From the human T2T-CHM13v2.0 reference genome, Homo sapiens: a stretch of DNA of 64,000 bases. How positions within the stretch are numbered: position 1 is the first letter of the stretch; each line of letters begins with the position of its first letter. A program made the translations under genes and the position numbers. Where the stretch lies: the NCBI RefSeq assembly GCF_009914755.1, contig NC_060944.1; one strand, written 5' to 3'. Under the pieces are notes generated by a model, which saw only the letters and a list, made by a program, of their open reading frames with translations, made no database searches and was not told the DNA's origin. Below are positions 42,076 through 64,000 of the stretch, one piece after another.

Positions 42076-42892
42076 AACGGCTGTTTCCGTGGTTCTTTGC
42101 CTCTTGTCCTTGAGTCCTGGGAAGAGCTGGGGACTGGGGATTGTTTGCTGAGTGCCTGAACAGGACCTCCTACCCTATGCCTGCAACCCCCTCCACAAAA
42201 AACAAAAAACCCTACCTCCTCCCACCTGGCCGGAAATTTCTTCTCCTGATCTGCTCCCCCTGTCCTCCCCATCCCCATCTGATTGTGATTCCCAGAACTC
42301 CCCGGGTTGTTTGGGAGTGTTTCTGAAAGCATAATCCATGGCCATGGAAATGAATCATCCTACTTCTTGGGGGCATTGAGAGTCAGTCCACATCAGCAAG
42401 GGTAGAGTGGAGAGGTGGGAGGGCTCTGGGTGGTGGGTCTCTAACTGTAGTGTGCATCAGAGTCACTGGGGGCACTTGTGAAAATAATGTATGTTCCTGG
42501 GGTCCAGATCCTACTAATTCAGTTGGTCTGGGTGTGGCCCAGACTTTGACTTTTTAGCAGGCTTCTCAGGAGCTCCTGCTGTGCTCTGTCCTCAGACCAC
42601 CCCCAGGCTTTGAAGCCAGGCTCATTGGATTGAAGCCCGCCCCGCCCACCTCCCTTGCTGGTTACATAACCCTGGATTTCTGTAAAACAAGCCTTTAGGC
42701 GGTTGCCTCCCACTGCCCTCATCTTCTGTCTTTTCCTCTGGCACACTTGGCATCAACTGTGTGTTATTTGCAGTTCCCCCCACCTCCTACCCCACTCAGT
42801 TCTCCCATCATAGTGGTTTGGCCTAGAATGCCCTATTCCACCAACCATGCACACCTCTCAACTGCCTGGTTCCCTCATAAAACCAGATGAGG

Positions 42893-43299
<407 letters not shown>

Positions 43300-44621
43300 T
43301 TATCAGCTGGCTGCTGTCCTTTGACTTCCACCAGATGGTGTGCTTCCTGGAGGCACAGGTTCTGTCTTTCATTAAGACCTGACCCATCTCAGGACATGTA
43401 AGTGCTCAATCAGCAAACGCTAAATGTATTAACTGGGTATGGGCTATTCTGGCTTGAGATCTGGGATCCAAGATAGGGATGGGCAAGGGGCACTCTGGAA
43501 GCTCCACATGTGTGAGTGCAGCAGTCTTAACACAGTGGTACAGGTGTCTCTGTAGCCAGCATAGATGGGCTGTGTAGGTTCCTTGAAGGGTTTTAGGAGC
43601 CCTCAGCACATGCGGGTGGTATGTGTGCATATGTAGGAAGGAAAGGCGGTGAGCTAGTCTAGACCATGGGCAAAGGCAATTTGTTCAAGGTGCTTTTACT
43701 TGAGTTTACTTCAAAAGCAGTAAAGGAGCAGACTGTAAATGAGACAGGAACGCAGGTGAGTGGATACACAAAGCTAAGTGGTCTGTGTAGTGTGCCTAGT
43801 GTGGGATGGAGCATGCATAGCATGGGGTGTCTGCCAAGTCAGAAGAGCACAGAGCTGTGGCCTGGCTCTCTTTTATACCCGCAGCCCTGTCAGTACCTAG
43901 AAACGACCTCCACTACCATGCCACATGTAACCTACGCTCTGGCAACACCCACATATTTCTAGATCAGACCTCCTCCCTGGATCTTGGATTCATTTACCCA
44001 ACTGCCTACTTGCTTTCTCCATTTGGATGTCTAAAGACATCTCAAATTGAATATCTCCAAAACCGAGCTTCTGATGTGCTCCACCCCACCCCAAACAGGC
44101 CCAACCATAGTCACCTCATCTCTGTAAAAGGTAATTCGTGTCTTTCCAGGCACTCAGGCCAAATACCTTTGAGTCATCCTTGTCTCTCTCTCATCCTGTT
44201 TGCACCCTACCTTCAAAATAAATCCAGAATCCCACCCCTTTTCACCACCTCCACTATTATCAGTGAGGTTTTCCCTGGCCATACCCTATTTCAAATTGCT
44301 ATCCTAGCACGCTACATTCACCTGGGGAACTGAAAAAATCCTGATGCCCAGGCTTTACCCAAACCAGTTAAATCAGAATTTAATGTGGGACTCACAGAGT
44401 CTCCAAGTGACACCAATGTGTAGCCAAGCTTAAGAACTTGGTCTTATTTTTAAAGTAGTATGAAAACTTACTGTCTCTCCTAAGCATTCTAACAATGGAT
44501 ACTTTTCAGAATAAGATTGTGTAAAACAGAGAACTCACTTTTAACTTTATAACAATTTATGTATTGTTTGTCTTTTTAAAACAAAAGTATATGTTGAGTT
44601 TATAATAAAAATAAAAATTTG

Positions 44622-45138: not shown

Positions 45139-45212
45139 TTGAGGTCTTTTCTGAGCTGGTCATGCCCACCAGGCAGATGGCAAGGCAGGGCACAGAAGCT
45201 GCTGAGCTCCAT
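45139..45212 (-). pseudogene. Colostrum trypsin inhibitor (CTI/ELP) pseudogene, exon 1 (signal peptide) with 2-nt frameshift
   Basis: Minus strand: Kozak ggcaccATGG, MELSSFCAL / (frameshift) CLAICLVGMTSSEKTS, then a phase-1 donor A|gtgagc. 74 nt versus the 76 needed for 25 codons + 1. Resembles carnivore/bovine CTI signal exons (recalled as MKFSLFLALC..LVGITSLEKAS). The position next to PIGT matches the known ELP/CTI synteny. Confidence 0.75.
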
Positions 45213-45257
45213 GGTGCCAAGGGCTGAGCTCCATGAGCCAGGGCTGGGAGGCTGGAA

Positions 45258-45331
45258 CTTATACCTGCAGAAAAAGAAGAGTCCCTGTTTCCACAGGACA
45301 AAGGAAATATCTTGTTTTTGATTTCTTGGAA
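45258..45331 (-). promoter_or_regulatory. CTI-pseudogene promoter: TATAAG box (45263-45258) and STAT5/GAS site TTCTTGGAA (45323-45331)
   Basis: Both motifs are directly visible, with the spacing expected for a milk-protein proximal promoter. Confidence 0.6.
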
Positions 45332-46495
45332 GAGGAAGCACTCTGGGCAAGAGGTATGAGCCGGGATGAAGTGGACTCCTTGTCTGGAGGTGGTGCTACA
45401 CACCTTGGAGGGGCTCCTGGGAGCTACTGAGAATGTCCCCTAAGTCAGTATTCCTGCCTCAGCTGAAATGCCAGTCTTCAGCCTCATCTACTGCACACTT
45501 GAGTCCATGAGATTTTAGAGTGGTAAGTGACCTTTGGGGTCTCAGTTTTCCTATCTGTAAAGGGAGTGGGCTGGACAATGAACAGCTGTTCTCCATTCTT
45601 TTGTTATTGGTTCCCATCCAGAGCCTCCCAGCTAGTTGTCTCAACATCCCAGGGGAGAAAGCATAGCTCTTTGTCCATTGGTTTATTTATTCAATTTAGG
45701 AATAATGAGTGTATTGTTTTATATGAATAACCATACTTATTTAAAAGATCAAACTAAACTAAATAGTACAAACAAGCGAAATCTCTCCCCAGAGTCTACT
45801 ATGGTGCTGTGCAACAGAAATATAATACAAGCCACAAATCGAATTTTCAATTTCCTAGTAGCTTTTTTAAAAAGTAAAAAGAGGGGCCAGGCACAGTGGC
45901 TCAGCCTGTAATCCCAGCACTTTGGGAGGCTGAGGTGGGCAGGATCACCTGAGCTCGGGAAGTTGAGGCTAATAGTGGGCTGAGATTGTGCCACTGCACT
46001 CCAGCCTGGGTGACAGGGAAGGAGACCCTGTCTCAAAAAAAAAAAAAAAGAAAGGAAAAACAGGTAAAATTAATTTGATGATAGTTTATTTGAGTACAGT
46101 ATATATATCATTTCAATATATAATTAATATGAAATAAAAACTAATGCAATATTTTACTTTTCTTTATATTAAGTCTTTGAAATCTGATGTGTACTTTAAA
46201 CATTTATAGCATATAACAACTAATATTAGCCATAACTCATGTGCTCAATAGTTGCATGTGGTCAGTGGCTACCATATTGGACATTGATGCTCTACCATAT
46301 AAAGCAACTATCAGTAACTTCAGGATAACCTCATCAACATTTTGTTAGATTGATTAACAAAAATAATTCTACAAAAATGAAGAGTTTATGGATATTGTTT
46401 TCCCTGAATTTTTGCATATTTTCTTTATACCTGAAGGACAATTTTATGGGGTAATATTTTAAAAAATAATTTGACTTTTTTTTTCCTCTTTCTAG

Positions 46496-47152
<657 letters not shown>

Positions 47153-48911
47153 TAATGTCTTATTTTATTAAAGTTTTTGTTTTTTAAGCTGAAAGCCCTC
47201 CTATAAATTTTTCCTTTTATCAGATTTTCTGCTGAATTCAGTTATCTGTGTCTGTTTCTTTTCTCCAGCGTCCTTTCCTTTTTAATTTTCTTCTTTTTTT
47301 CCTTTCTTCCCTCCCTCCCTGCTTTATTTTCTTTCTTCCTTATAACTGTATGTAGTATGGTGCATAGCTACTCTGTCATTTCCCTTCATCTTCGTCAGGC
47401 TCAGTTTGGGCAACTCTGCCCTGTCCTTTCGCTTATTCTAATTGGTGTCAGTATATTCTCTTTGGTTTCCTTCTCACCATATCTGAGATCTATTGTTATT
47501 TCCATCCCTACCCCCCAAATTGCAGTCTGAAGTTTGCCTCTATACACTTCTGTGGAGCCTAAAGTCATGGGGTTGAGGGAAGAAAGGAATGCTATTGGAG
47601 ATGTCTCTTGACTATGATGGGCAGCCTGGGCTCTGCTCTCTGGAGATTTTCTTAAATTCCTGGAACCACAGTTGGCTTCCTCTAGTGACGTGTTATTCCA
47701 TTTTTGAGAAAGTTTCCCTGGAGCTTTGGATCAGCCAACCAATTAGAAATTTGAGCCTTGGGGAATGGCAAACCTTGGTGGGCTTTTTATCTCTGTGGAG
47801 ACCCCAAGAGCTTGGGTGGGACTTGAATTTTCTGGGGATGCATCTTGACTTTTTGCATGCAGTTCTCTAACACTCCTCCCCAAAACTCATATTAAAATTT
47901 AATCCCTAATGTGGCAGTACTGAGAGGTGGGGTCTTTAAGAGGTGATTGGGTCATGAATGGATTAATCCATTCACAGATAAATGGATTAATGGATTATCA
48001 TAGGAGTGGGACTGGTGACTTTATAAGAGGAAAACACATAGTTTAGCATGCTCAGCCCCCTCACCATGTGATGTCCTGAACTGCCTCAGGACTCTGCAGA
48101 GGGTCCCCACAACAAGAAGGCTTTCACCAGGTGCATCCCCTTGACCTTGGGCTTCCCAGCCTACAGAACTGTAAGAAATAAATTTGGTTTTTAATAAATT
48201 ACCCAGTTTCAGGTATTCTGTTAAGACACAGGACAAGAAGGCTACTCAGTTGCAAGCAAGAGCCATTTCTTATGGAAAAGGAAGTGTGAGTCAGAGTGGA
48301 GCCAAGAACCTCTGGCAACAGGTGCACAATTCAATTTCAGAATTGCCGGGGCTCAGTGATTGCTCTGAACTTCCCCTTTTAAAACGGTAGTGAACATAGT
48401 GGTTTCCTGTGCCAATCTCGCCATTGCAGGTTGGGTGCATGTGAGGCAGAAAACATGTCTCTTTAGTTCACAGGTTTTCAGATGGAGAGAAACTCTACCC
48501 ACGGAACAGAACCCAAGACGCCTCTTTGCAGCTGGACTTGATGTAGATAAGCTCCAGAAATTGGAGCTGAGTTTGATGTCAAAATAGGATGAGGTGTTTG
48601 TTTGTTTGTTTGTTTGTTTGTTTGGTTTTAAGACAAACTCACTCTGTCACCCAGGCTGGAGTGTAGTGGTGTGATCACGGCTCACTGCAGTTTTGACTTT
48701 CCAGGCTCAAGCAATCCTCCCACCTCAGCCTTTTGAGTAGCTGGGACTACTACAGGTTTGTGGCACCGTGATTGGCTAATTTTTTATTTTTTATAGAGAT
48801 AGGGTCTTGCTATGTTGCCCAGGCTGGTCTCGAACTCCTGGATACAAGTGTTCCTCCCACCTCAGTCTCCCAAAGTGCTGGGATTACAGTCATGAACCAC
48901 TGCATCTGGCC

Positions 48912-48950
<39 letters not shown>

Positions 48951-49865
48951 TGGGAAGTAGGGCAGTGGGGGTAGGTGGGGACGGGTCTTGGAGGAAGTTA
49001 TATTTTACATATAGGAAAATTTTAACTAATCTGTCTCAGTTTAAAAACATGTCTGCAATTTTTCTGGCACTTGTCCCATTGAGAATTGGGGTCAATCCCC
49101 TTTTTGAATCTGGGCTGACCTTGCCGACTCCATCATGATCAGTAGAATGCAGTGGAAGAGATACTGTGTGATTTCTGAGGCTAGGTCAAAAAAGGCTGTC
49201 CTTCCATCTTGCACTCTTGGGATGCTGGCTCTGGGTGATGCTGATGTCCATGTGAAAAGTCTGACTACCCAGAGGCCACTGCTGAAAAGAACACATGCAG
49301 TGGACACCGGCCAACAGTTCCAGCTGAGTTTAGCCTTTTAGTTTAGCCTTTCTGCCAAGGCCCTAGACATGTGATTGAAGCCATCCTGGGTCCTCCAGCC
49401 CAGCCCAGCCCAGCTGGGTACCACAGAATGACCTCAGACATGGCCACAAGGAGCAAAAGAATTCCCCAACTAAGCCCCGCCTGAATTCCAGACCTACAGA
49501 ATCCACGTGCATCAGAAAAGAGTTGTTGTTTTGTGCCACTAAGTATGGATCCTGGTAGGCAACTCACTGGAACAACTGGTGAGAATTTTCAGGACTTTTG
49601 TATTATTTCCTCTTTCTCCTGCACCTCTTCTGGAACAGAGCAGTTGGGGATAGGACCATGACGAAACACATCAAGATATTCTATATTTTTCTGTTGCTAC
49701 TGCTTTTTGAAGTTTATGGAATGAGGTTCTACTGTTTCCCATGGTGGTTTACTGCTGCTGATTTTTTTTTTTTACCTGTTTTTTTTTTTCTCCTATCCAA
49801 TTCAATAGAAACCAGAGAATGAACATTCTATTGTGAAACTATCCTGCCATCTGCACTTTACTCAG

Positions 49866-50872
<1,007 letters not shown>

Positions 50873-52599
50873 CCCAGAAGTCTATGTTTTAAATGAAAAC
50901 TTAATTTTAAATAGTACAAAAATATTTGTAAGGTTTTTTATTTTCTTAATCATAAAAAGAACATAAGAGATTAAATAGGTGATATTAAAGAAAGAAAAAG
51001 AACGCCCATGTTCTTACAACACTAATACAATACCTGTGAACATTTTGTTTCTCTTTCCCCTACATAGCATTATTTTTTGTCTGTTGATTGAATTCCCTCC
51101 CCTCCCAAAGTTTTTTTTTTTTTTTTTGTATTAAGCCAAACCACAAATAAGTATCATTTATGTTAGATGCCGTGCTAGGTGCTGCTGATACAACTGAGAA
51201 TATGTCAGATACAGCCCCAGCCCTTTTTGATTTAGAGTCTAGCTGGTGAGGTCATTTACCAAATAATGATGCATAATCATTCCATAAATACAAATGATGG
51301 TGTTATGAAGATAAAAAGAGGGTGCTCAGAAAGAACTAAGGGGGTACAATTTATTTTATTTTAGAAATTCTTTTAGATTCAGAAAGTACGTGTGCAGGTT
51401 TGTTGCACGGGTGTATTGCATGATGCTGAGGTTTGGGCTTCCAACGATCCCGTCGCCCAAGCAGTGAATATAGTACCCAACAGGTAGTTTTTCAACTTTT
51501 GCTCTCCTCCATCCCCCCTTCTGGAATCCTTAGTGTTTATTGCTCACATCTTTGTGTCCTTGTGGGGATGCAATTTAGATTGAGGCTCAGGGACAGCTTC
51601 TGTGAGAAAGTGACCTTTAGGCTGAGCAGAAGGAGGTGGCAGGAATGTGGAGGGAAGACAATCCAGGTGACGGGAACAGCTCCGAGGTGGGGAAGAGCTC
51701 CCAGTGATGGAAGAGGCAGCTTTGTGGCCAGAGCTGGTCAGCATGGGAGAGAGTGACACAAGGGCCTGAAAGAGGACCCGTGTGGCCATGGTAAGCCCAT
51801 TGGTGATGAAGCCAGGGGCACCAGGTGGACCTGGTAAAGGAGGACAGATTTCACATTCACAAGAATCAGAATCTACTGAACGCTTTTAGGCGGGTGGAGA
51901 CACGATCAGCTTCATTCACTTCCTTCCCCCATACAGTATTTACTTTTCACTGAGGTGTGATATAATGTATCCAGAAAAAAGTGCAGAAATGTATAACCCA
52001 GTGAATTTTATAGAACATTACCAGCATCCTAAAAGCACCCCTTCCACTCATTCCCCTAGAGTAACCACTATCTTGACTTCCAACTATTTGCCTGTTTTTG
52101 TACTTTCCATGTAAACGCGGTCATCCAGCAGGTGCTGTTTTCTATCTGGGTTTTTAACTCAACGCTATGTTTATGATGTTCATCCGTTCATTACATGTAG
52201 TTGTAGATCATATTTCCTTCTTTAAAAGATCACACTGGCTGTAGCATGAAGAATGAGCAATTTCAAAATTAAGCAAAATATTAAACAGCTAAGAATGGAA
52301 ATAAAATTCAAGTCAATTTCAAAAAGAAACACAGGGACAGATTTTGCCAGATACCTGGTACAGATTTTGCCAGACATATGGTACATTTTGTTCGTTACTA
52401 TATCTCCAGAATTTTCCTACCTCTTTCTCCAAATAGAGAATATTTAAAAGTTTTCTTAAAAACCCTGATATATAACATTTGCAATGTTCTCTACAGTTTG
52501 CAAAGTGTTTTCCTAATGATTTTCTGCTTTGATCCTGCAAAATCTTATGAATGCCAGTACCATTTCCCTTTTACAGAAGAAGAAACTGGCTCAAGAAGA

Positions 52600-52940
52600 T
52601 GAGACATGATGCTTTGTAGCCGAGGAATTGCCTCAGGTGTCACCATCCCCGTCCCTGCGAATTGGAATTTCAGGCGGGGGCGAGCTGCTGGCTCTGCCGG
52701 CAAACTCGCCTTATCCCACGCCGCCGAAGGGTCCAAGCTTTCCAGCTGCGTAACACGACCAGGCCCCGAGCGCTCTGGCCCGGGGGCAGATACTTTCGGT
52801 TTGCAGCTCTCAGGGCAGCGCTGCCCTGGGACGCCCAGTGGGTTTTCACGGCTCCCCTGGGTCTGGGATCAGGGCAGCTCCGCCTAAGGGCGCGGCCCAA
52901 TCTGAGGGTTCGTCGCCCCCGCGTGGTCAGACGTGGGAAT
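52600..52940. promoter_or_regulatory. Small orphan CpG-rich island (candidate promoter)
   Basis: CpG-dense, with GC-box-like and CCAAT (ggcccaatct ~52895) motifs; no adjacent coding gene in the window. Confidence 0.5.
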
Positions 52941-52949
52941 GGCAGCTTC

Positions 52950-56457
<3,508 letters not shown>

Positions 56458-56564
56458 TGGGGGAGCACCTGTTGGAGACACAGCATCTCATCCCCCAGAC
56501 CTGCTGAATCAGAATCTGCATTTCAAGAAGATCCCCAGGCAGTTCGCAGGCATGTGCACATTTA

Positions 56565-57458
56565 TGTTGACAAAAAGAGTCCAACTCTGTCAAATATTTG
56601 AAGAGATCTATTCTGAGTCAAATATGAGTGACCAATGGCCTGTGACACGGCCCCAAGAGACCCTGAGAACATGTGCCCAAGGTGATCAGGCTATAGCTTG
56701 GCTTTATACAGCTTAGGGAGACATAAGACATCAATCAATACAAGTAAGATGTACATTGGTTTGGTCCAGGAAAATGGGACAACTGGAAGCATGGGGTGGG
56801 GGCGCTTCCAGGTCATAGGTGGATTCAAATATTTTCTGATTGGTAATTGGTTGGGAGTTTATTTAAAGACCTGGAATCCACAGAAGGCATAGAAGGGAGT
56901 GTCTGGATTAAGATAAGGAGTCATAGAGACCAGCGTTCCTATTATGCAGATGAAGCCTCTAGGTAGCAGGCTTCAGAGACAATAGATGGTAAATGTTTCT
57001 TATCAGACTTAAAAAAGTGCCAGACTCTTAGTTAATTCTCACCTGAATCAGGCAAACAACCTGGAAAGGGAAGGGGATTCTCTACAGAATGTAGATTTTC
57101 CCCACAAGGGACAGTTTTGCAGGGCTATTTCAAAAATATGTCAAAAAATATATTTTAGGGTAAAATACTTTGATTTCTTTCAGGGCCTCTCTGACATGTG
57201 GTACTTACACCAGAGTGAGGCTGGAATTTGGTATCCTATTGCTAATCTGTTTTGTTAGTCTTAAGATCTCTGTTTTAATGTTACTGCTGGTCAGTTGTGC
57301 CTGAATTCCAAAGGGAGGGGAGTGCAACGTGGCGTGTCCAATCCCCCCTTCCCATCATGGCCTGAACTAGTTTTCCAGGTTTCTTTGGAATCTCCTTGGC
57401 TGAGACAGGGGCTCCATTCCATCAGTTGGGGGATTTAGAATTTTATTTTGGGTTTACA
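56565..57458 (-). mobile_element. MER4-group solo LTR (antisense)
   Basis: tgttgacaaaaagagtc ... ttagaattttattttgggtttaca, the reverse complement of the MER4 LTR ends. Confidence 0.75.
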
Positions 57459-57651
57459 ACAGTAAGCAAAATGCTTTCCTGAGTTCTGAGAGTCATTCTA
57501 GTGAGTTATCCAACTTGAGGGGCGATTGTGGAACACTAAAATTTGTATAGCCAATCAGTCAGAAGTGTGAGTGACCCCTGGAATTTGCGCTTGTATCTGA
57601 AGTGAGAGCAGGGTCTTGTGGGACTGAGCCCTTAACCTGTGAGGTCTGTGC

Positions 57652-58195
57652 TGTAAACCAGAAATAAAATTCTAAGCCCCCACCCATCTGAATGGACCCC
57701 TCCTCTTGGCCAAAGGCGTTCCAAGGTTAACCTGTAAAACTAGTTTAGGCCATGATGGAAAGGGGGAATTGGACATTAGCACTAACATAGACCTTAAGCT
57801 GATAAGCATTTACAACCTCTTCTCTCTGAAGCCTGCTAAAGTGGAGGCTTCATCTGCATGATGAAACCTTGGTCTCCACAACCCCTTACCTAACCCAGAC
57901 ATTCCTTTCTACTGATTCCAGATCTTTAGATAATAACCAATTGCCAATCAAAAAATCTTTGAATCCACCTGTGATCTGGAAGCCCCTCCCATCTTTCTGA
58001 ACTCAACCATTGTACATCTTACATGTATTGATTGATGTCTTATGTCCCCCTAAAATGTATAAAATCAAGTTATAGGCCGACCACCTTGGGCCCACGTCAT
58101 CAGGGCCTCCCCTGAGACTGTGCCACAGGCATGTCCTTAACCTTGGCAAAATAAACTCCAAAATTGAGACTTGTTTCAGATACTTTTGGTTTACA
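57652..58195 (+). mobile_element. MER4-group solo LTR nested in a MER21-like LTR
   Basis: tgtaaaccagaaataaaattctaagcccc ... ttttggtttaca; MER21-like text continues on both sides (gtctgtgc | taactcaggagtgtcagaa). Confidence 0.72.
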
Positions 58196-58279
58196 GTTCT
58201 AACTCAGGAGTGTCAGAAGTGAATTAATTTGTGAACACCTAGTTGGTGTTGGAGAATTTGTTGGTGTTGGAAAAGATAC

Positions 58280-58913
58280 TGTTACCGGAAAGAGGTCCCA
58301 ATCCAAACCCCAAAAGAGGGTTCTTGGACCTCGTGCAAGAAAGAATTCAGGGTGAGTCCATAGAGTAAAGTGAAAGCAAATTTATTAAGAAAGTAAAGGA
58401 ATAAAAGAGTGGCTGCTCCATAGGCAGAACAGCCCCAAGGGCTGCTGGTTGGCTATTTTTTTCATTATTTCTTGATTATTTGCTAAACAAGGGGTGGATT
58501 ATTCATGAGTTTTACGGGAAAGGGGTCAGCAGTTCCTGGAATTGAGGGTTCTTCCCCTTCTTAGATCATATAGGGTAACTTCTTGACATTATGATGGCAT
58601 TTGTAAAGTGTCATGGTGCTGGTGGGAGTGTCTTTTAGCATGTTAATGCATTATAATTAGCATATCATGAGCAGTGAGGATAACTAGAGGTCACTTCTGT
58701 TGCCATCTTAGTTTTGGTGGGTTTTGGCAGGCTTCTTTACTGCAACCTATTTTATCAGCAAGGTCTTTGTGGCCTATACCTTGTACCGACCTCCTGTCTC
58801 ACTCTGTGACTTAGAATGCCTAACCTCCTGGGAAAGCAGCCCAGCAGGTCTCAGCCTTATTTTACCCAGCTCCTATTCAAGATGGAGTCTCTCTGATTCA
58901 AACGCCTCTGACA
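58280..58913 (-). mobile_element. MER41B solo LTR (ERV1)
   Basis: Reverse complement starts TGTCAGAGGCGTTTGAATCAGAG and ends ...CCGGTAACA; 634 bp; 4-bp TSD ATAC; tandem GAS motifs. Confidence 0.88.
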
Positions 58914-59038
58914 ATACCATGTATTTGGTGTTAGGAAAAAACTCTCCAGACTCACTCATCCCTGTTCTTTGGTGGCTAAGGGGAGAAATGAGTTTGGGTA
59001 GCTCCTCCCCAAGACCCTTACCAGTTATCTGCATTTTA

Positions 59039-59393
<355 letters not shown>

Positions 59394-60416
59394 TTAATGG
59401 TAGCTTGTCCTGGCTCCAGCACTTACTAGCTGTGTGATCTTGAGTAAGTTACTTATTCTTAATTTCCTCATCTGTGCAGTGGGGATGCCTGCCACACAGA
59501 TTCTTTACTCATTTTTTACTAAAATGTCTTATTCTCAAAGACTTTGTCTACCTACCTCCAAGTAAGAAAATCCGATATGAAATCATTATTTTATTTCCCC
59601 CTTCTAAGAATTAATCAGAAGGATCTAGAACAGCTTAACTGCCTGAGGCACCTGTAGGCAGAAAGCAAGAAACTTGTTCTGTATTCTGAGAGTTTGCTGG
59701 AGGTTTGCTCGAGGGCCAAGGTGTGCTTCTCCCAGGCTGTCAAGATATTAGTAATAACTCCAGGCCCTCACTTTCCTATGTCTCAACTATTATCCTCTCG
59801 AGATCTTTGAGTGTCTTCAGGCTGGTGAATCTCATAGCATGAGAGTGCTGCATGTTAGAGCTAGATTCCTAATAAGGAGGTGACCCATGGTCAAATACAC
59901 ATTTTTCTAAGGAACTTAATTATCCACATTCTATTCAATGACTGCAGCACCCCCCACTACCAGTGAGCATCAGGAGATTAATTTATTTGACAAATATTTG
60001 CCAAGTACCTACAAGGCATTGCTCTCCATAAGCCTCACTTCCTGTGGCTTTGCTGAGTTTCTAAGGTATCTCTGGCTTTGTGGTTCTGGGGTTGAACCAC
60101 ATGTGAGGTGAGGGTTGGGCATGGTGGCACCATCCTGGGCAACAAAGGAAGACTCCATCTCTTAAAAGACATCTAGGGTGATGGAGGAGTAGGGGAACTG
60201 AGGTCCTCTGCTCAGTCCTTGGGCTACTTTCTAAATTACACATTCTGATTGCCCTCTGCTCCTGCAGTGCCCACAGCCTTCCTCCCTCCTTCCATCTTCA
60301 TGGGCTGAGGCCATTCCATTCATGGGCTGAGGCCATTCCAGAAGGAAGGTGAAGGAAGTGATGGGGGTTGAAGGGAGAGGCCCTGGGAGCCTGCAATAGC
60401 TGCAACTGGAAGGAAT

Positions 60417-61124
60417 TGTAATCGCCCAATGGGTTCACCTTGCCCACTGCCTAGACAGAGCTGATTTCTCAAGACAGGGGAATTGCAATGGAGAAAGAGT
60501 AATTCATGCAGAGCCAGCTGTGTGGGAGACTGGAGTTTTATGATTGCTCAAATCAGTCTCCCCAAGTATCCCGGGATTGGAATTTTTAAAGATAATTTGG
60601 TGGGTAGGGGCTCGGGAAGTGGAGAGTGCTGATTGGTCAGGTTGGAGATGGAATCACAGGGGAATTGAAGTGAGGTTTTCTTGCTGTCTTCTGTTCCTGG
60701 GTGGGATTGCAGAACTGGTTGAGCCAGATTACTGGTCTGGGTGGTGTCAGCTGATCCATCAAGTGCAGGGTCTGCAAAATATCTCAAGCGCTGATCTTAG
60801 GTTTTACAATAGTGATGTTATCACCAGGAGCAATTTGGGGAGGTTCAAACTCTTGCTGCATGATTCCTAAACTGTAATTTCTAATTTTGTAGCTAATTAA
60901 GGCAGACTGTTACCCAGGTAAGAAGGAGGTATGTTTTGGAAAGGGCTAGTGTCAATTTTGTTTCAGTCAAACCATAAACTAAATTCCTTCCTAAGGTTAG
61001 TTCTGCCTACACCCAGGAATGAACAAGGACAGCTTAAAGGGTAGAGGCAAGATAGAGTTGGTTAGGTCTGATCTCTTTCAGTGTCATAATTTCCTCAGTT
61101 ATAATTTTCACAAAGGCAGTTTCA
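60417..61124 (-). mobile_element. LTR8-family solo LTR (ERV1)
   Basis: Reverse complement starts TGAAACTGCCTTTGTGAAAATTATAACTGAG; 4-bp TSD GAAT (60413-60416 / 61125-61128). Confidence 0.8.
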
Positions 61125-63086
61125 GAATCATGCCATAAGTCCTCCACATTCCCCAAGTACCTGGCTTGTGCCGATCCCTTAGTCCACTTTTCTACCCTCT
61201 TCTCTTCCAGTCCCAATCCAACTGTGCTACAAAGCTCATATCCAGGTCCAACCCCTGAGAAACTTCTCTCGATCCCCTAGTTGGAAAAAATCATTCCCTC
61301 TTCTGACCTCCCATGTCGAGACCATTTATAACATGTTAGAACTCGATTCCTAACAAGGAGGTGCCCGATGATCAAATACACTTTTTTCCAGGGAACTTAA
61401 TTATCCTCATTCTATTCAATGACTGCAGCACCATCCCCACCATCAATGAGCATGAGCAGATTAATTCATTTGACAAATATTTGCCAAGTACCTACAAGGC
61501 ATCGTTCTCCATGAGCACATAGCTGTAAACAAAACACAGCAGCAAAGGACCCTACCCTCTAGGTGAGGCAGGCAATAGAAAAATAAGGAGATAATATGTG
61601 AGTCATGACAAGCATTTTGAAGACAAAATAGTGGAAGGGGATAAGGAGTAATGGGGGTAAAGGAGGTGCTGCTCTTTTATGTAGACCGGTCAAAGAGCAG
61701 AACCTGTAGAAAGTAAGTGAGCATCGTGACCAGCTGGGAGAAGAGCAATGCAGGAAGAAGACGTGGTTAGTGCAAAGGCCCCAGGAAGACTGTGCCTGAT
61801 GTGTTTGAGCAGCAGCGATGAGGCCAGTGTGGCTGGGGCTGAGTGGGTGGGGTGGGAGAGTGTAAGATGATATGGTCAGAGAGGCTGTGGGGGCAAGCCT
61901 TGTAGGACTGTATAAAAACTTAGGCTTTGTAAGAGAGATGGGAAATCACAGGAACATCATGATCTGATTCAAATTGTCACAGGATCCCTCTGGCTGCAGT
62001 GTGGAGAGTGGCCTGTAGGGGACCAAGGGTGGAGACAGAGGGCCAGTGAGTAGGCTACTGCACCAGTCCAGGCAAACACTGAAGACCTGTGTATATGTGT
62101 TGTTCCCTCGGTCTGTCTCAGGTCTGTTGAATAGTAAGAATGCTTTGCTCTGTTGAAGATGATTCCGTTCTTTACATAAGTAATTAAATGTCTTTCCTTT
62201 GCTGTTTCCTGATACCTAAATGCAGTAATATATGCTCATGATAGAAAACTTAGAAAATAAAGAAAAGCATTAAACAATAAAGATTTCCAACTCCTACAAC
62301 TCAAAGAAAACAGATAAATCATCCTACTTTAGAGGACTAAATGTACAGGAACTCATTGATTTGCTCATCAAAAGGTGAAGAGGGAAGAGTAGCAGCCCCA
62401 GGTAGAGCTACCCAGCAGGCGAGGCTGCCCTCAGGAACCACAGCCTTCCCTTTCCTAATGATTTCTACTCTGTGGCACCCACACTTCCCTCCTCAGGGCT
62501 CTGGTGTTATCCTCCTTCTGGGTCTCCATCATATCTGCTCTCAGCAAAAGATCCAGCTCATTCATCCAGCCCCAAGGGACAGGGCTTCACCTCCGGACAA
62601 GGGTGAGATGAATGAGGTCTTGGACACAGAATTTAAGAAGTCAAAAACCTCAGCCATCAAGATAAATCATATTAAAATGCAATGGTTTAAAAAATTAAAA
62701 TTAATTTTAAAAGTCCATGAACAAAATATAAACATTTAAAATAAAGACAGGGTCCAACCTTGCACCTGCACAGTCCTGCCTTGCTCTCTGCACCCTAACC
62801 CAGCCCTGCTCAGCCCAAGAGCTTTGAATCTGAATACAAATCATTCCAGACTTCAAGATCAAGTTAAAGTGTTAATCGTCTACCAGAATGTGATTTCTAG
62901 CTTTAAAAAGAAAACCAAGAAAACAACTTCCACATCAATGCAAAGGTTTTCTCATTTCACCAGGTTTTTGTTTTCCGTCTGTTTACCTGATGGTTTACTA
63001 AAGAGGTGAAGAAGTCTGTGGCTGAATGAACACATTGAATAATTGCAGAGACTTAAATTCTCAAATATTCATAAAAATATTTTACC

Positions 63087-63400
<314 letters not shown>

Positions 63401-63450
63401 TAGACCGCTGTGATGACCATCTTCTTATTGACCCTCCTTTGTCTCTGGAG

Positions 63451-63600
63451 CCCCGCCACCTGCCTTCTACCTGGAGCCTTCCTTCCAGGTCCTTCTTCAA
63501 CATCAGCTCCAGGATCTGCAAGATCTTTGGATATGGCCGCTGCAGAAGGAAGGAGAACCACTTCCTGGAGAAGCAGGAGTGAGCCAGGATCTGCCACACA
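63451..63600 (+). pseudogene. Decayed BPTI/PTI-like Kunitz-domain exon (unprocessed pseudogene)
   Basis: After a pyrimidine tract and AG (63449-63450), phase-1 reading gives (A)PPPAFYLEPSF; after a frameshifting deletion it reads RSFFNISSRICKIFGYGRCRRKENHFLEKQE*ARIC. Compare BPTI [57 protein letters not shown]. Confidence 0.85.
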
Positions 63601-64000
63601 AGAGAGCCGGGAACCCAGGGCATGGGTTAAGGCGAGGAGCAGGTCCGGAGGGAAGATCTGAGGCAAAGAGGTAGAGTTCACAGGTCCTACACCCCTCGCA
63701 CCTACACAGTGTCCCTCCTCTGATGCTGAGGCTCTCTCTGCCTTCCGAGGAGAAAGTGGCGACGTGTCCTGTGAAACCGCAGACTTAACACATCTTCCAA
63801 AAGCCAGCTTGGCAGGAGGTCACTGCTAGAAGCACCTCTGAAATAATCTGAGCCGTCTTACCTGTTCCCCTTTTTCAGATGGGAACACTGAGGCAGCCAC
63901 CCTGCAGAGTGAGTCTGCAGTGCTCCTGAGCCACCCCCCTCCAGGCTTGGCAAACTCACTGCCTTCTTGTCTGTTGCCTTGACTGCAGGGAGGACCAGAG

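What the first reader, a model, noticed from the sequence alone, without database searches (positions are those of the whole stretch)
63451..63600. Fossil human aprotinin (BPTI/PTI)-like Kunitz exon with the reactive-site loop deleted
Seen in sequence: a branch-point/pyrimidine tract/AG at 63428-63450, then G|CC CCG CCA CCT GCC TTC TAC CTG GAG CCT TCC TTC = APPPAFYLEPSF, in the same register as BPTI [12 protein letters not shown] (CysI TGC->TAC). The ~26 nt that should encode TGPC-K/R-Axxx (CysII and the P1 reactive site) are missing and the frame shifts. The rest reads RSFFNISSRICKIFGYGRCRRKENHFLEKQE*ARIC, with CysIII, IV and VI kept and CysV changed to TGA (63580-63582). The 'YG.CR.K.N.F' pattern is BPTI/pig-UPTI-like rather than the generic 'YGGCxGN'. 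Established: the bovine PTI/TKDP Kunitz genes lie in the region syntenic to this PIGT-WFDC locus, and no functional human BPTI gene is known. Inference: this is the dead human member of that lineage. The breakpoint CAGGT(C/A)C could occur at both ends of the lost segment, suggesting microhomology-mediated deletion. The ORF track shows only part of it because of the frameshift.
Basis: partly seen in the sequence, partly recalled or inferred. Interest (0 to 1): 0.9.

Follow-up and report, generated by a model that had tools for sequence, protein, structure and literature searches.

The report
Dead aprotinin-family Kunitz exon in human
This is the decayed remnant of a protease-inhibitor (Kunitz) exon from the gene family that gave cattle aprotinin; in humans it makes no inhibitor and survives only as one exon of a non-coding RNA.

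Summary
Window 63451-63597 (+) is a broken Kunitz-domain exon. The 3' two-thirds (63487-63594) passes the Pfam Kunitz cut-off, is found by a whole-genome scan, and is the only Kunitz hit between PIGT and WFDC2. The 5' piece (63459-63485, other frame) matches bovine BPTI codons 2-10 at 20 of 27 bases, against 6-15 of 27 for 24 human Kunitz domains. Between the two pieces 26 nt are missing: the reactive loop and Cys II. Cys I reads TAC and Cys V reads TGA. The exon start is a spliced acceptor, exon 3 of lncRNA NR_159957.1.

Published synteny places the single ancestral gene ELP/CTI (colostrum trypsin inhibitor) in this interval. It describes PTI/STI/TKDP as ruminant-only descendants, calls human CTI a pseudogene, and says its Kunitz exon is absent. 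I located the CTI promoter and exon 1 relic at 45139-45263 on the minus strand. That is 18.2 kb from this exon and in the opposite orientation. The exon is therefore probably a second dead family member rather than CTI exon 2 in place. Whether it is a true PTI orthologue could not be tested, because no other mammalian sequences were available. It is a non-functional pseudogene relic of modest interest that RefSeq does not annotate as a pseudogene.

The parts
63427..63450 (+). Intron end: branch-point-like TTGAC, pyrimidine tract, AG acceptor (63449-50)
   Evidence: Sequence read. The exon start 63451 is annotated for NR_159957.1.
63451..63485 (+). 5' piece of the Kunitz exon, entered in phase 1 (|CC CCG CCA CCT GCC TTC TAC CTG GAG CCT TCC TTC). 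The Cys I codon reads TAC at 63468-70.
   Evidence: One search gives the translation. Searches show 18 of 21 and 20 of 27 nt identical to bovine BPTI codons 2-10. One search gives 6-15 of 27 for 24 human Kunitz domains.
63486..63486 (+). Junction: one base where 27 are expected. 26 nt are lost, covering BPTI residues 11-19 (Cys II, P1 and the binding loop), and the frame shifts.
   Evidence: There is no length variation in this stretch in 24 human domains. Both profile alignments stop here.
63487..63579 (+). 3' piece of the Kunitz domain (RSFFNISS...KQE): Cys III and IV kept, N-I-S sequon at 63499-63507.
63580..63582 (+). TGA at the Cys V position
   Evidence: Reading through with X adds 6 bits.
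63583..63597 (+). End of the domain (ARICH) with Cys VI at 63592-94. In this frame a TAA follows at 63628-30.
63451..63670 (+). Exon 3 of lncRNA LOC105372631 (NR_159957.1), which contains the whole relic. The donor at 63671 is in phase 1 of the 3' piece's frame.
   Evidence: The phase is counted.
45139..45263 (-). Context, a separate relic: promoter (TATAAG 45263-45258) and exon 1 (ATG 45212 to 45139, 74 nt, donor GTGAGC) of the human CTI pseudogene.
   Evidence: Of 25 stop-free ATG+74 nt+GT candidates it has the highest hydropathy. Sequence read. The dog CTI exon 1 primer matches 16 of 26 directly before the ATG; 12 of 171,950 positions reach that level. This fits the paper's description: reverse strand, next to PIGT, 2-nt deletion, GT kept.

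Best explanation
This is a dead Kunitz-domain exon of the ELP/CTI-PTI inhibitor family, the family that occupies the PIGT-WFDC2 interval in therian mammals. It encodes nothing functional.

All three disulfides are broken: Cys I is now Tyr, Cys II is deleted and Cys V is a stop. The protease-binding loop is gone through a 26-nt frameshifting deletion.

Its phase-1 splice acceptor still works, so the exon is carried as exon 3 of the lncRNA LOC105372631.

It is not the in-place exon 2 of the published human CTI pseudogene. That gene's promoter and exon 1 lie 18.2 kb away on the opposite strand, next to PIGT. Most likely it is what remains of a second family member, head-to-head with CTI, whose first exon is lost or unrecognisable.

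Shown: Kunitz origin, the lesions, the splicing, the family affinity of the 5' piece, and the position and strand of CTI exon 1. Inferred: that it was a separate gene, and when that gene arose.
For: Kunitz origin.

Homology of the 5' piece to BPTI. Its specificity against 24 human domains.

The 3' piece is only 9-15 of 36 identical to 23 human domains (COL7A1 left out because of a 3-residue insertion), so it is not a recent copy of a living human gene.

Synteny of CTI, PTI, STI and TKDP between PIGT and WFDC2: PMC3426482.

CTI exon 1 on the minus strand at 45212-45139. No Kunitz signal between PIGT and that exon, which agrees with the paper's report that exons 2 and 3 are absent there.

No single inversion turns the order (exon 3, exon 2, exon 1, all minus) into (exon 1 minus ... 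Kunitz plus, distal). This is my own reasoning.

Acceptor in a PTI/STI-like register rather than a CTI-like one.

lncRNA exon.
Against: I could not see the paper's own alignment of human exon 1, because supplements are closed. My exon 1 assignment therefore rests on one 26-nt primer plus the paper's verbal description.

No first exon for a second gene was found on the plus strand upstream. No second copy of the CTI promoter or exon 1 was found in the interval.

The published view is that the extra family members are ruminant-specific.

The acceptor could be a cryptic site adopted by the lncRNA.

A general Kunitz profile gives no score to the 5' piece, so its homology rests on the match to BPTI DNA alone.
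Confidence: 0.55

Rival explanations
1. It is the 'missing' exon 2 of the human CTI pseudogene itself, moved about 18 kb and inverted by a complex rearrangement. The authors themselves wrote 'excised or transposed'. Alternatively, my exon 1 assignment or the paper's strand remark is wrong.
For: It is the only Kunitz remnant in the interval. It has the N-x-S sequon at the ELP/CTI-conserved Asn-42 position. The paper needs a fate for exons 2 and 3. lncRNA exon 4 read in phase 1 gives 7 codons and then TGA, loosely like CTI exon 3. That resemblance is weak and could be chance.
Against: It is on the opposite strand and 18.2 kb distal to the exon 1 relic, and no single inversion gives this order. 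The acceptor lies 5 codons before Cys I, against 17 plus a split codon in all ELP/CTI genes, and the frame upstream has three stop codons. The dog and cow CTI exon 3 primers find nothing near it: no site near the relic is among the five best ungapped matches per primer.
Confidence: 0.25
2. It is a decayed duplicate of one of the living chr20 Kunitz genes (SPINT3, SPINT4, SPINT5P, EPPIN, WFDC8) rather than of the CTI/PTI family.
For: It lies in the same gene cluster. SPINT3 ties for the best BLOSUM score over the 3' piece, at 13 of 36 identical.
Against: In the 27-nt 5' register these genes match at only 6-11 of 27, against 20 of 27 for BPTI. Identity over the 3' piece is no higher than to unlinked TFPI. 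All six known motifs lie telomeric of WFDC2.
Confidence: 0.05
3. Chance resemblance: it is an ordinary lncRNA exon with no Kunitz ancestry.
For: The domain is only partly matched and the genome-wide E is 0.02. Pyrimidine-rich sequence gives Leu/Pro/Phe-rich translations in every frame. One example is the signal-peptide-like ATG+76 nt+GT at 63413-63488, which I judge to be a coincidence.
Against: Two independent signals sit side by side on one strand in the correct order: the profile hit and the BPTI DNA match (about 0.003 expected per window). They lie inside the Kunitz/WFDC cluster, behind a phase-1 acceptor of the kind described as typical of this gene family.
Confidence: 0.02

Closest known systems
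Bovine PTI (BPTI, aprotinin) and STI genes
   Same: Same syntenic interval, between CTI and WFDC2. 20 of 27 nt identical over codons 2-10. 12 of 28 residues identical over residues 20-47, including the Arg and Lys after Cys IV. The acceptor-to-Cys I distance fits the 192-bp exon.
   Different: The human copy is broken: frameshift, stop codon, and three of six cysteines lost. It carries an N-x-S sequon that PTI/STI lack. There is no similarity after Cys VI (5 of 27 nt). The literature dates PTI/STI to within ruminants.
ELP/CTI (early lactation protein / colostrum trypsin inhibitor), including the published human CTI pseudogene
   Same: It lies in the PIGT-WFDC2 interval. The sequon sits at the conserved Asn-42 position. 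It has phase-1 exon architecture. Human CTI is already described as a pseudogene.
   Different: Opposite strand and 18.2 kb from the CTI exon 1 relic. The 5' part of the exon is short, unlike the 216-bp CTI exon. The paper reports the human Kunitz exon as absent.
SPINT5P and the frameshifted WFDC6 Kunitz motif (other decayed Kunitz units of the human 20q13 cluster)
   Same: They are non-functional or doubtful Kunitz units in the same cluster.
   Different: Those keep full-length domains (SPINT5P 57.9 bits, profile 1-52) and are annotated. This one lies centromeric of WFDC2, lacks a third of the domain, and RefSeq annotates it only as a lncRNA exon.
Human TFPI Kunitz domain 1
   Same: It is the most similar human domain over the 3' piece (15 of 36) and ties with BPTI in the PDB search at 23.1 bits.
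   Different: It is unlinked (chr2). Only 7 of 27 nt match in the 5' register. This is family-level resemblance only.

Membership tests
Kunitz/BPTI domain (Pfam PF00014) | Profile score at or above the curated cut-off (21 bits) | tested here: met
   23.5 bits. 26.8 bits in the genome scan.
Kunitz/BPTI domain (Pfam PF00014) | Six cysteines forming the I-VI, II-IV and III-V disulfides | tested here: not met
   Only III, IV and VI remain. I is TAC, II is deleted and V is TGA. It is a relic of the family, not a working member.
Kunitz/BPTI domain (Pfam PF00014) | Reactive-site (P1) loop and an open reading frame | tested here: not met
   26 nt are missing between residues 10 and 20, which causes a frameshift. 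There is an in-frame TGA.
ELP/CTI orthologue (as defined in PMC3426482) | Lies between PIGT and WFDC2 | tested here: met
   Window 63451 lies between the PIGT end (42091) and the WFDC2 start (85608).
ELP/CTI orthologue (as defined in PMC3426482) | Reverse strand, next to PIGT, in one three-exon unit with exon 1 | tested here: not met
   The relic is on the plus strand. The exon 1 relic is on the minus strand at 45212-45139, 18.2 kb away. The paper's own exon 1 alignment was not visible.
ELP/CTI orthologue (as defined in PMC3426482) | 216-bp exon 2 with about 18 codons before Cys I | tested here: not met
   The acceptor in use is 5 codons plus a split codon before Cys I. Upstream in that frame there are stops at 63411, 63414 and 63429. 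An older acceptor lost to decay cannot be excluded.
ELP/CTI orthologue (as defined in PMC3426482) | N-glycosylation sequon at Asn-42 (BPTI position 24) | tested here: met
   N-I-S at 63499-63507.
PTI/STI (aprotinin) lineage | 192-bp Kunitz exon: 3-5 full codons plus a split codon before Cys I | tested here: met
   The relic has 5. The PTI figure is inferred from the exon size, from genomic PCR spanning residues 2-62, and from the phase-1 rule.
PTI/STI (aprotinin) lineage | Closer in sequence to PTI/STI/TKDP than to CTI (tree placement) | not testable with these tools
   No CTI, STI or TKDP sequence was obtainable. Only BPTI fragments were available, from a primer and from PDB alignments.
PTI/STI (aprotinin) lineage | No N-glycosylation sequon in the domain | tested here: not met
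   The relic has N-I-S. The paper says PTI, STI and the TKDPs have none.
lncRNA exon (RefSeq NR_159957.1) | Annotated spliced exon with AG/GT boundaries | tested here: met
   Exon 63451-63670. AG at 63449-50 and GT at 63671-72.

The most novel reading that the evidence does not exclude
The relic is the human orthologue of the founder of the ruminant PTI/STI/TKDP cluster. On this reading a second, plus-strand, short-exon (PTI-type) Kunitz gene already sat between CTI and WFDC2 in the common ancestor of humans and cattle. The aprotinin lineage would then be several times older than the published 25-35 Myr, having been lost in most mammals and expanded only in ruminants.
Probability: 0.25. Interest if true: 0.55.

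Novelty: new member of a known kind. Interest (0 to 1): 0.4.

Why it matters
The finding adds a seventh Kunitz unit to the human 20q13 WFDC/Kunitz cluster, and the only one centromeric of WFDC2. Two dedicated studies did not report it. A six-frame motif screen looked for GCxGN and NNF, which this relic lacks (PMC3209443). An mVISTA study concluded that the human Kunitz exon of this interval was excised (PMC3426482).

It gives a concrete human sequence against which the origin of aprotinin, the spleen inhibitor and the trophoblast Kunitz proteins can be dated. It is also a clear example of a dead coding exon whose acceptor has been kept in use by a lncRNA. It has no evident bearing on human physiology.

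Tried and rejected
1. In-frame reading of the 5' part (SLEPRHLPSTWSLPS directly ahead of RSFF, with no deletion). Ungapped BLOSUM scores against 23 human domains are all negative, from -1 to -23. Both profiles stop aligning at the junction. Rejected.

2. Exon 1 fused to exon 2. ATG 63413 + 76 nt + GT 63489 reads MTIFLLTLLCLWSPATCLLPGAFLP, the same layout as SPINT3 and CTI exon 1. There is no DNA similarity to SPINT3 exon 1: 25 of 78 matches, and 10% of random windows do as well. Local alignments to 7 paralogue exon pieces give p values of 0.10-0.86. The same bases match BPTI exon 2 DNA. Rejected as coincidence.

3. PDB searches with the frame-2 and frame-0 translations of the 5' region gave peroxiredoxin noise at E 0.7 and above, and no hit at all.

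4. The three allowed word searches for proteins found no candidate (relic ORF), no candidate (EPPIN Kunitz exon), and 7 proteins that are all EPPIN/WFIKKN-like or invertebrate, none of them CTI or PTI (pooled alignment A1). Candidates left out as unnamed numbered 3, 1 and 13. These blanks say little.

5. No intact signal-peptide exon was found on the plus strand at 45300-63400: 96 phase-1 ATG...GT candidates, none convincing and none with a TATA box. A decayed one would escape this scan.

6. No second copy of the CTI promoter or exon 1 was found in 46001-86000 (best E 0.44). A weak nhmmer hit of the relic to 42220-42429 (minus strand, 4.3 bits) is poorly aligned noise.

7. Dog and cow CTI exon 3 primers have no site near the relic, or between PIGT and CTI exon 1, among their five best ungapped matches. 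So lncRNA exon 4 cannot be called CTI exon 3.

8. Literature. No paper found or 73 mentions a Kunitz remnant at this place. LOC105372631 occurs in one paper, a smoking-interaction association study seen in the search listing only. PMC6387120 and PMC1817651 (passages only) added nothing. GENCODE could not be consulted.

9. The microhomology idea could not be tested, and dating the lesions was not possible without other mammals.

Full report
WHAT IS THERE. The sequence at 63300-64000 was read. Behind an antisense Alu (masked 63060-63375) lie a pyrimidine-rich stretch and an AG at 63449-50. RefSeq starts exon 3 of the curated lncRNA NR_159957.1 (LOC105372631) at 63451. The lncRNA's exons are 43271-43397, 45297-45522, 63451-63670 and 64098-64435. 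From 63453 one frame reads PPPAFYLEPSF. From 63487 the next frame reads RSFFNISSRICKIFGYGRCRRKENHFLEKQE, then TGA, then ARIC. RefSeq annotates no pseudogene here. SPINT5P is a different locus, 303 kb away.

IS IT A KUNITZ DOMAIN? Yes.
- Pfam Kunitz_BPTI matches the ORF 63367-63579 at 23.5 bits (cut-off 21), E 6.6e-5, profile positions 17-47.
- A six-frame scan of the whole genome with PF00014 returned 37 rows at E up to 10. This site is row 31: 26.8 bits, E 0.02 for the genome, profile 17-52, one TGA inside. Eight of the 37 rows fall in chr20:47.18-47.49 Mb, the WFDC/Kunitz cluster.
- I cut 24 human Kunitz domains out of the reference and built an HMM from them. I ran it with all filters off on 2267 six-frame pieces covering window 42000 to WFDC2, with the sequence beyond the window taken. 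This piece scored E 2.4e-6 and the next best 0.26. It is therefore the only detectable Kunitz remnant between PIGT and WFDC2.
- Reading through the TGA with X raises the score from 26.8 to 32.8 bits. The stop therefore sits at the Cys V position and the Cys after it is Cys VI.
- Over the 3' piece the relic is 9-15 of 36 identical to 23 human domains (COL7A1 omitted because of an insertion). TFPI K1 (15) and SPINT3 (13) are highest. It is not a recent copy of a living human gene.
- In the PDB search (89 sequences at E up to 10), the best single-domain matches are BPTI and TFPI, both at 23.1 bits. The 3' piece alone does not single out BPTI.

THE 5' PIECE. Three readings competed.
- (B) An in-frame reading through SLEP.
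- (C) A signal-peptide-like ATG (63413) + 76 nt + GT (63489). This has exactly the exon 1 layout of SPINT3 (76 nt) and of CTI, and would mean an exon 1-exon 2 fusion.

General Kunitz profiles score none of the three. B scores negatively against every human domain.

The decision came from a paper. Table 4 of Clauss et al. 2011 (PMC3209443; passages read) prints the primers used to amplify BPTI from bovine genomic DNA. The forward primer gives the native DNA of residues 2-10 (P-D-F-C-L-E-P-P-Y). Its first 21 nt match 63459-63479 with 3 mismatches. That is the only match in the window, and 0 of 100 shuffles gave any. Over 27 nt the match is 20 of 27.

The shuffle control flatters this pattern. 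The human genome holds 152 matches at 3 or fewer mismatches, against 10 for the reversed pattern. That rate still predicts only about 0.003 per 64-kb window, and far less for a site directly ahead of the profile hit on the same strand.

As a control, the same 27-nt register in 24 human Kunitz domains matches the relic at 6-15 of 27 and BPTI at 9-16 of 27. The chr20 neighbours score SPINT3 8, SPINT4 6, SPINT5P 11, EPPIN 8 and WFDC8 10. Reading A stands. C is a coincidence of pyrimidine-rich sequence and has no similarity to paralogue first exons.

THE LESIONS. BPTI residue 10 aligns to 63483-85 and residue 20 to 63487-89. The spacing between these positions does not vary in 24 human domains. 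One base stands where 27 should, so 26 nt are gone. With them went Cys II, the P1 residue and the binding loop, and the frame shifts. Cys I reads TAC (63468-70) and Cys V reads TGA (63580-82). Each of the three disulfides has lost a partner. No inhibitor can be made.

WHICH GENE WAS IT? I read Pharo et al. 2012 (PMC3426482): abstract and outline, sections 5, 10, 21 and the first part of 12, and passages of sections 7, 8, 9 and 33. Supplements were closed. The paper reports the following.
- The milk inhibitor gene ELP/CTI lies between PIGT and WFDC2 in marsupials and eutherians, 'on the reverse strand'.
- It has three exons. Exon 1 runs 76 nt from ATG to GT. Exon 2 is 216 bp, with Cys I at mature residue 23.
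- All ELP/CTI proteins carry an N-glycosylation site at Asn-42.
- In cattle CTI sits next to PIGT. A 602-kb insert between CTI and WFDC2 holds PTI, STI and TKDP1-5, which the authors derive from CTI within ruminants 25-35 Myr ago.
- The Kunitz exons are 192 bp in PTI/STI, 196 bp in the TKDPs and 175 bp in SPINT4. Of the bovine Kunitz genes compared, only CTI and SPINT4 carry the sequon.
- Human CTI is a pseudogene. Exon 1 is present with a 2-nt deletion, and exons 2 and 3 are 'absent', 'excised or transposed'.

The relic has N-I-S at the Asn-42 position (BPTI residue 24), which is the CTI state.

WHERE IS HUMAN CTI EXON 1? I listed every ATG followed at exactly 74 nt by GT, on both strands, between PIGT and WFDC2. 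Each candidate had to be stop-free when read as 8 codons, a 2-nt gap and 16 codons. That gave 25 candidates. The most hydrophobic starts at 45212 on the minus strand. It has TATAAG at 45263-45258, a GTGAGC donor, and a TTCCAAGAA (TTCnnnGAA) motif at 45331-45323.

Table 3 of the paper prints the dog CTI exon 1 forward primer. It matches 16 of 26 directly before this ATG. Only 12 of 171,950 positions in the 86 kb reach that level. Of the 2838 sites followed by ATG only 2 do, and the other is an Alu.

The CTI relic therefore lies 3.0 kb beyond the PIGT 3' end on the minus strand, as the paper describes. No Kunitz signal lies between it and PIGT.

CONSEQUENCE. The Kunitz exon at 63451 is 18.2 kb distal to CTI exon 1 and on the other strand. 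No single inversion converts the ancestral order into this one. The simplest reading is a second family member, head-to-head with CTI, lying where cattle carry the PTI/STI/TKDP genes.

Its acceptor is 5 full codons plus a split codon before Cys I. For PTI I infer 3-5 codons from three facts: the exon is 192 bp, residues 2-62 are contiguous in genomic DNA, and second exons at this locus start in phase 1. CTI has 17 plus a split codon. The relic's donor (63670/71) is in phase 1 of the 3' piece's frame, and 220 + 26 nt would make a symmetric phase 1-1 exon. There is a 1 in 3 chance of that phase agreement.

WHAT COULD NOT BE SETTLED. No CTI, STI, TKDP or other mammalian sequence was obtainable. 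I found no first exon for it and no second promoter copy.

WHAT IT DOES NOW. As a protein-coding unit it does nothing. As RNA it is exon 3 of a curated lncRNA. Whether that transcript has a role is unknown. Exon 2 of the same lncRNA overlaps the dead CTI promoter on the opposite strand.

KNOWN OR NEW? The family, the synteny and the death of CTI in humans are published. This exon is not mentioned in any paper my searches found. Clauss et al. screened 1.8 Mb around the locus in six frames and found six motifs, all telomeric of WFDC2. They used GCxGN and NNF, which this relic (GRCRRKENHF) lacks. Pharo et al. reported the human Kunitz exon as absent. It is a new member of a known kind.

Noticed in passing
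window 45139-45335, minus strand: Promoter and first exon of the dead human CTI gene: a TTCCAAGAA (TTCnnnGAA, STAT5-type) motif at 45331-45323, TATAAG at 45263-45258, ATG at 45212, 74 nt, then a GTGAGC donor. ATGGAGCTCAGC occurs twice, 22 nt apart (45234 and 45212). RefSeq annotates nothing here.
   Followed up: yes
window 45297-45522 (+) versus 45258-45335 (-): Exon 2 of lncRNA LOC105372631 overlaps the CTI promoter relic on the opposite strand. The same lncRNA therefore passes through remnants of two dead inhibitor-gene units.
   Followed up: partly
window 63413-63490, plus strand: An open ATG + 76 nt + GT with a signal-peptide-like translation overlaps the Kunitz 5' piece in another frame. 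It has the same layout as SPINT3 and CTI exon 1. I judge it a coincidence of pyrimidine-rich sequence.
   Followed up: yes
window 63445-63452 and 63471-63478: The 8-mer CTGGAGCC occurs twice, 26 nt apart, giving 'LEP' in two frames. The spacing equals the size of the deletion. The 26-nt units are otherwise only 13 of 26 alike by my own count. Unexplained, probably chance.
   Followed up: partly
window 63060-63375: An antisense Alu is inserted 75 nt upstream of the relic's acceptor, in what would have been intron 1.
   Followed up: no
G000 chr2:169940949-169941083 (+) and chr9:32707430-32707537 (-): Two further Kunitz profile hits above the cut-off (32.1 and 23.7 bits), each with two TAG stops inside. 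They may be other Kunitz pseudogene fragments.
   Followed up: no
G000 chr20:47271027-47271186 (-), the WFDC6 region: The WFDC6 Kunitz motif appears as two overlapping profile hits (profile positions 1-24 and 23-53), which suggests a frameshifted domain.
   Followed up: no
L001 98-122 (window 64098-64122): lncRNA exon 4 read in phase 1 gives a split codon, 7 codons and then TGA, loosely like the short CTI exon 3. AATAAA lies at L001 394-399. The dog and cow exon 3 primers do not match it.
   Followed up: partly
window 66168-66193 (+): A 16 of 26 match to the dog CTI exon 1 primer lies 2.7 kb downstream of the relic. It is not followed by ATG. Probably chance.
   Followed up: no
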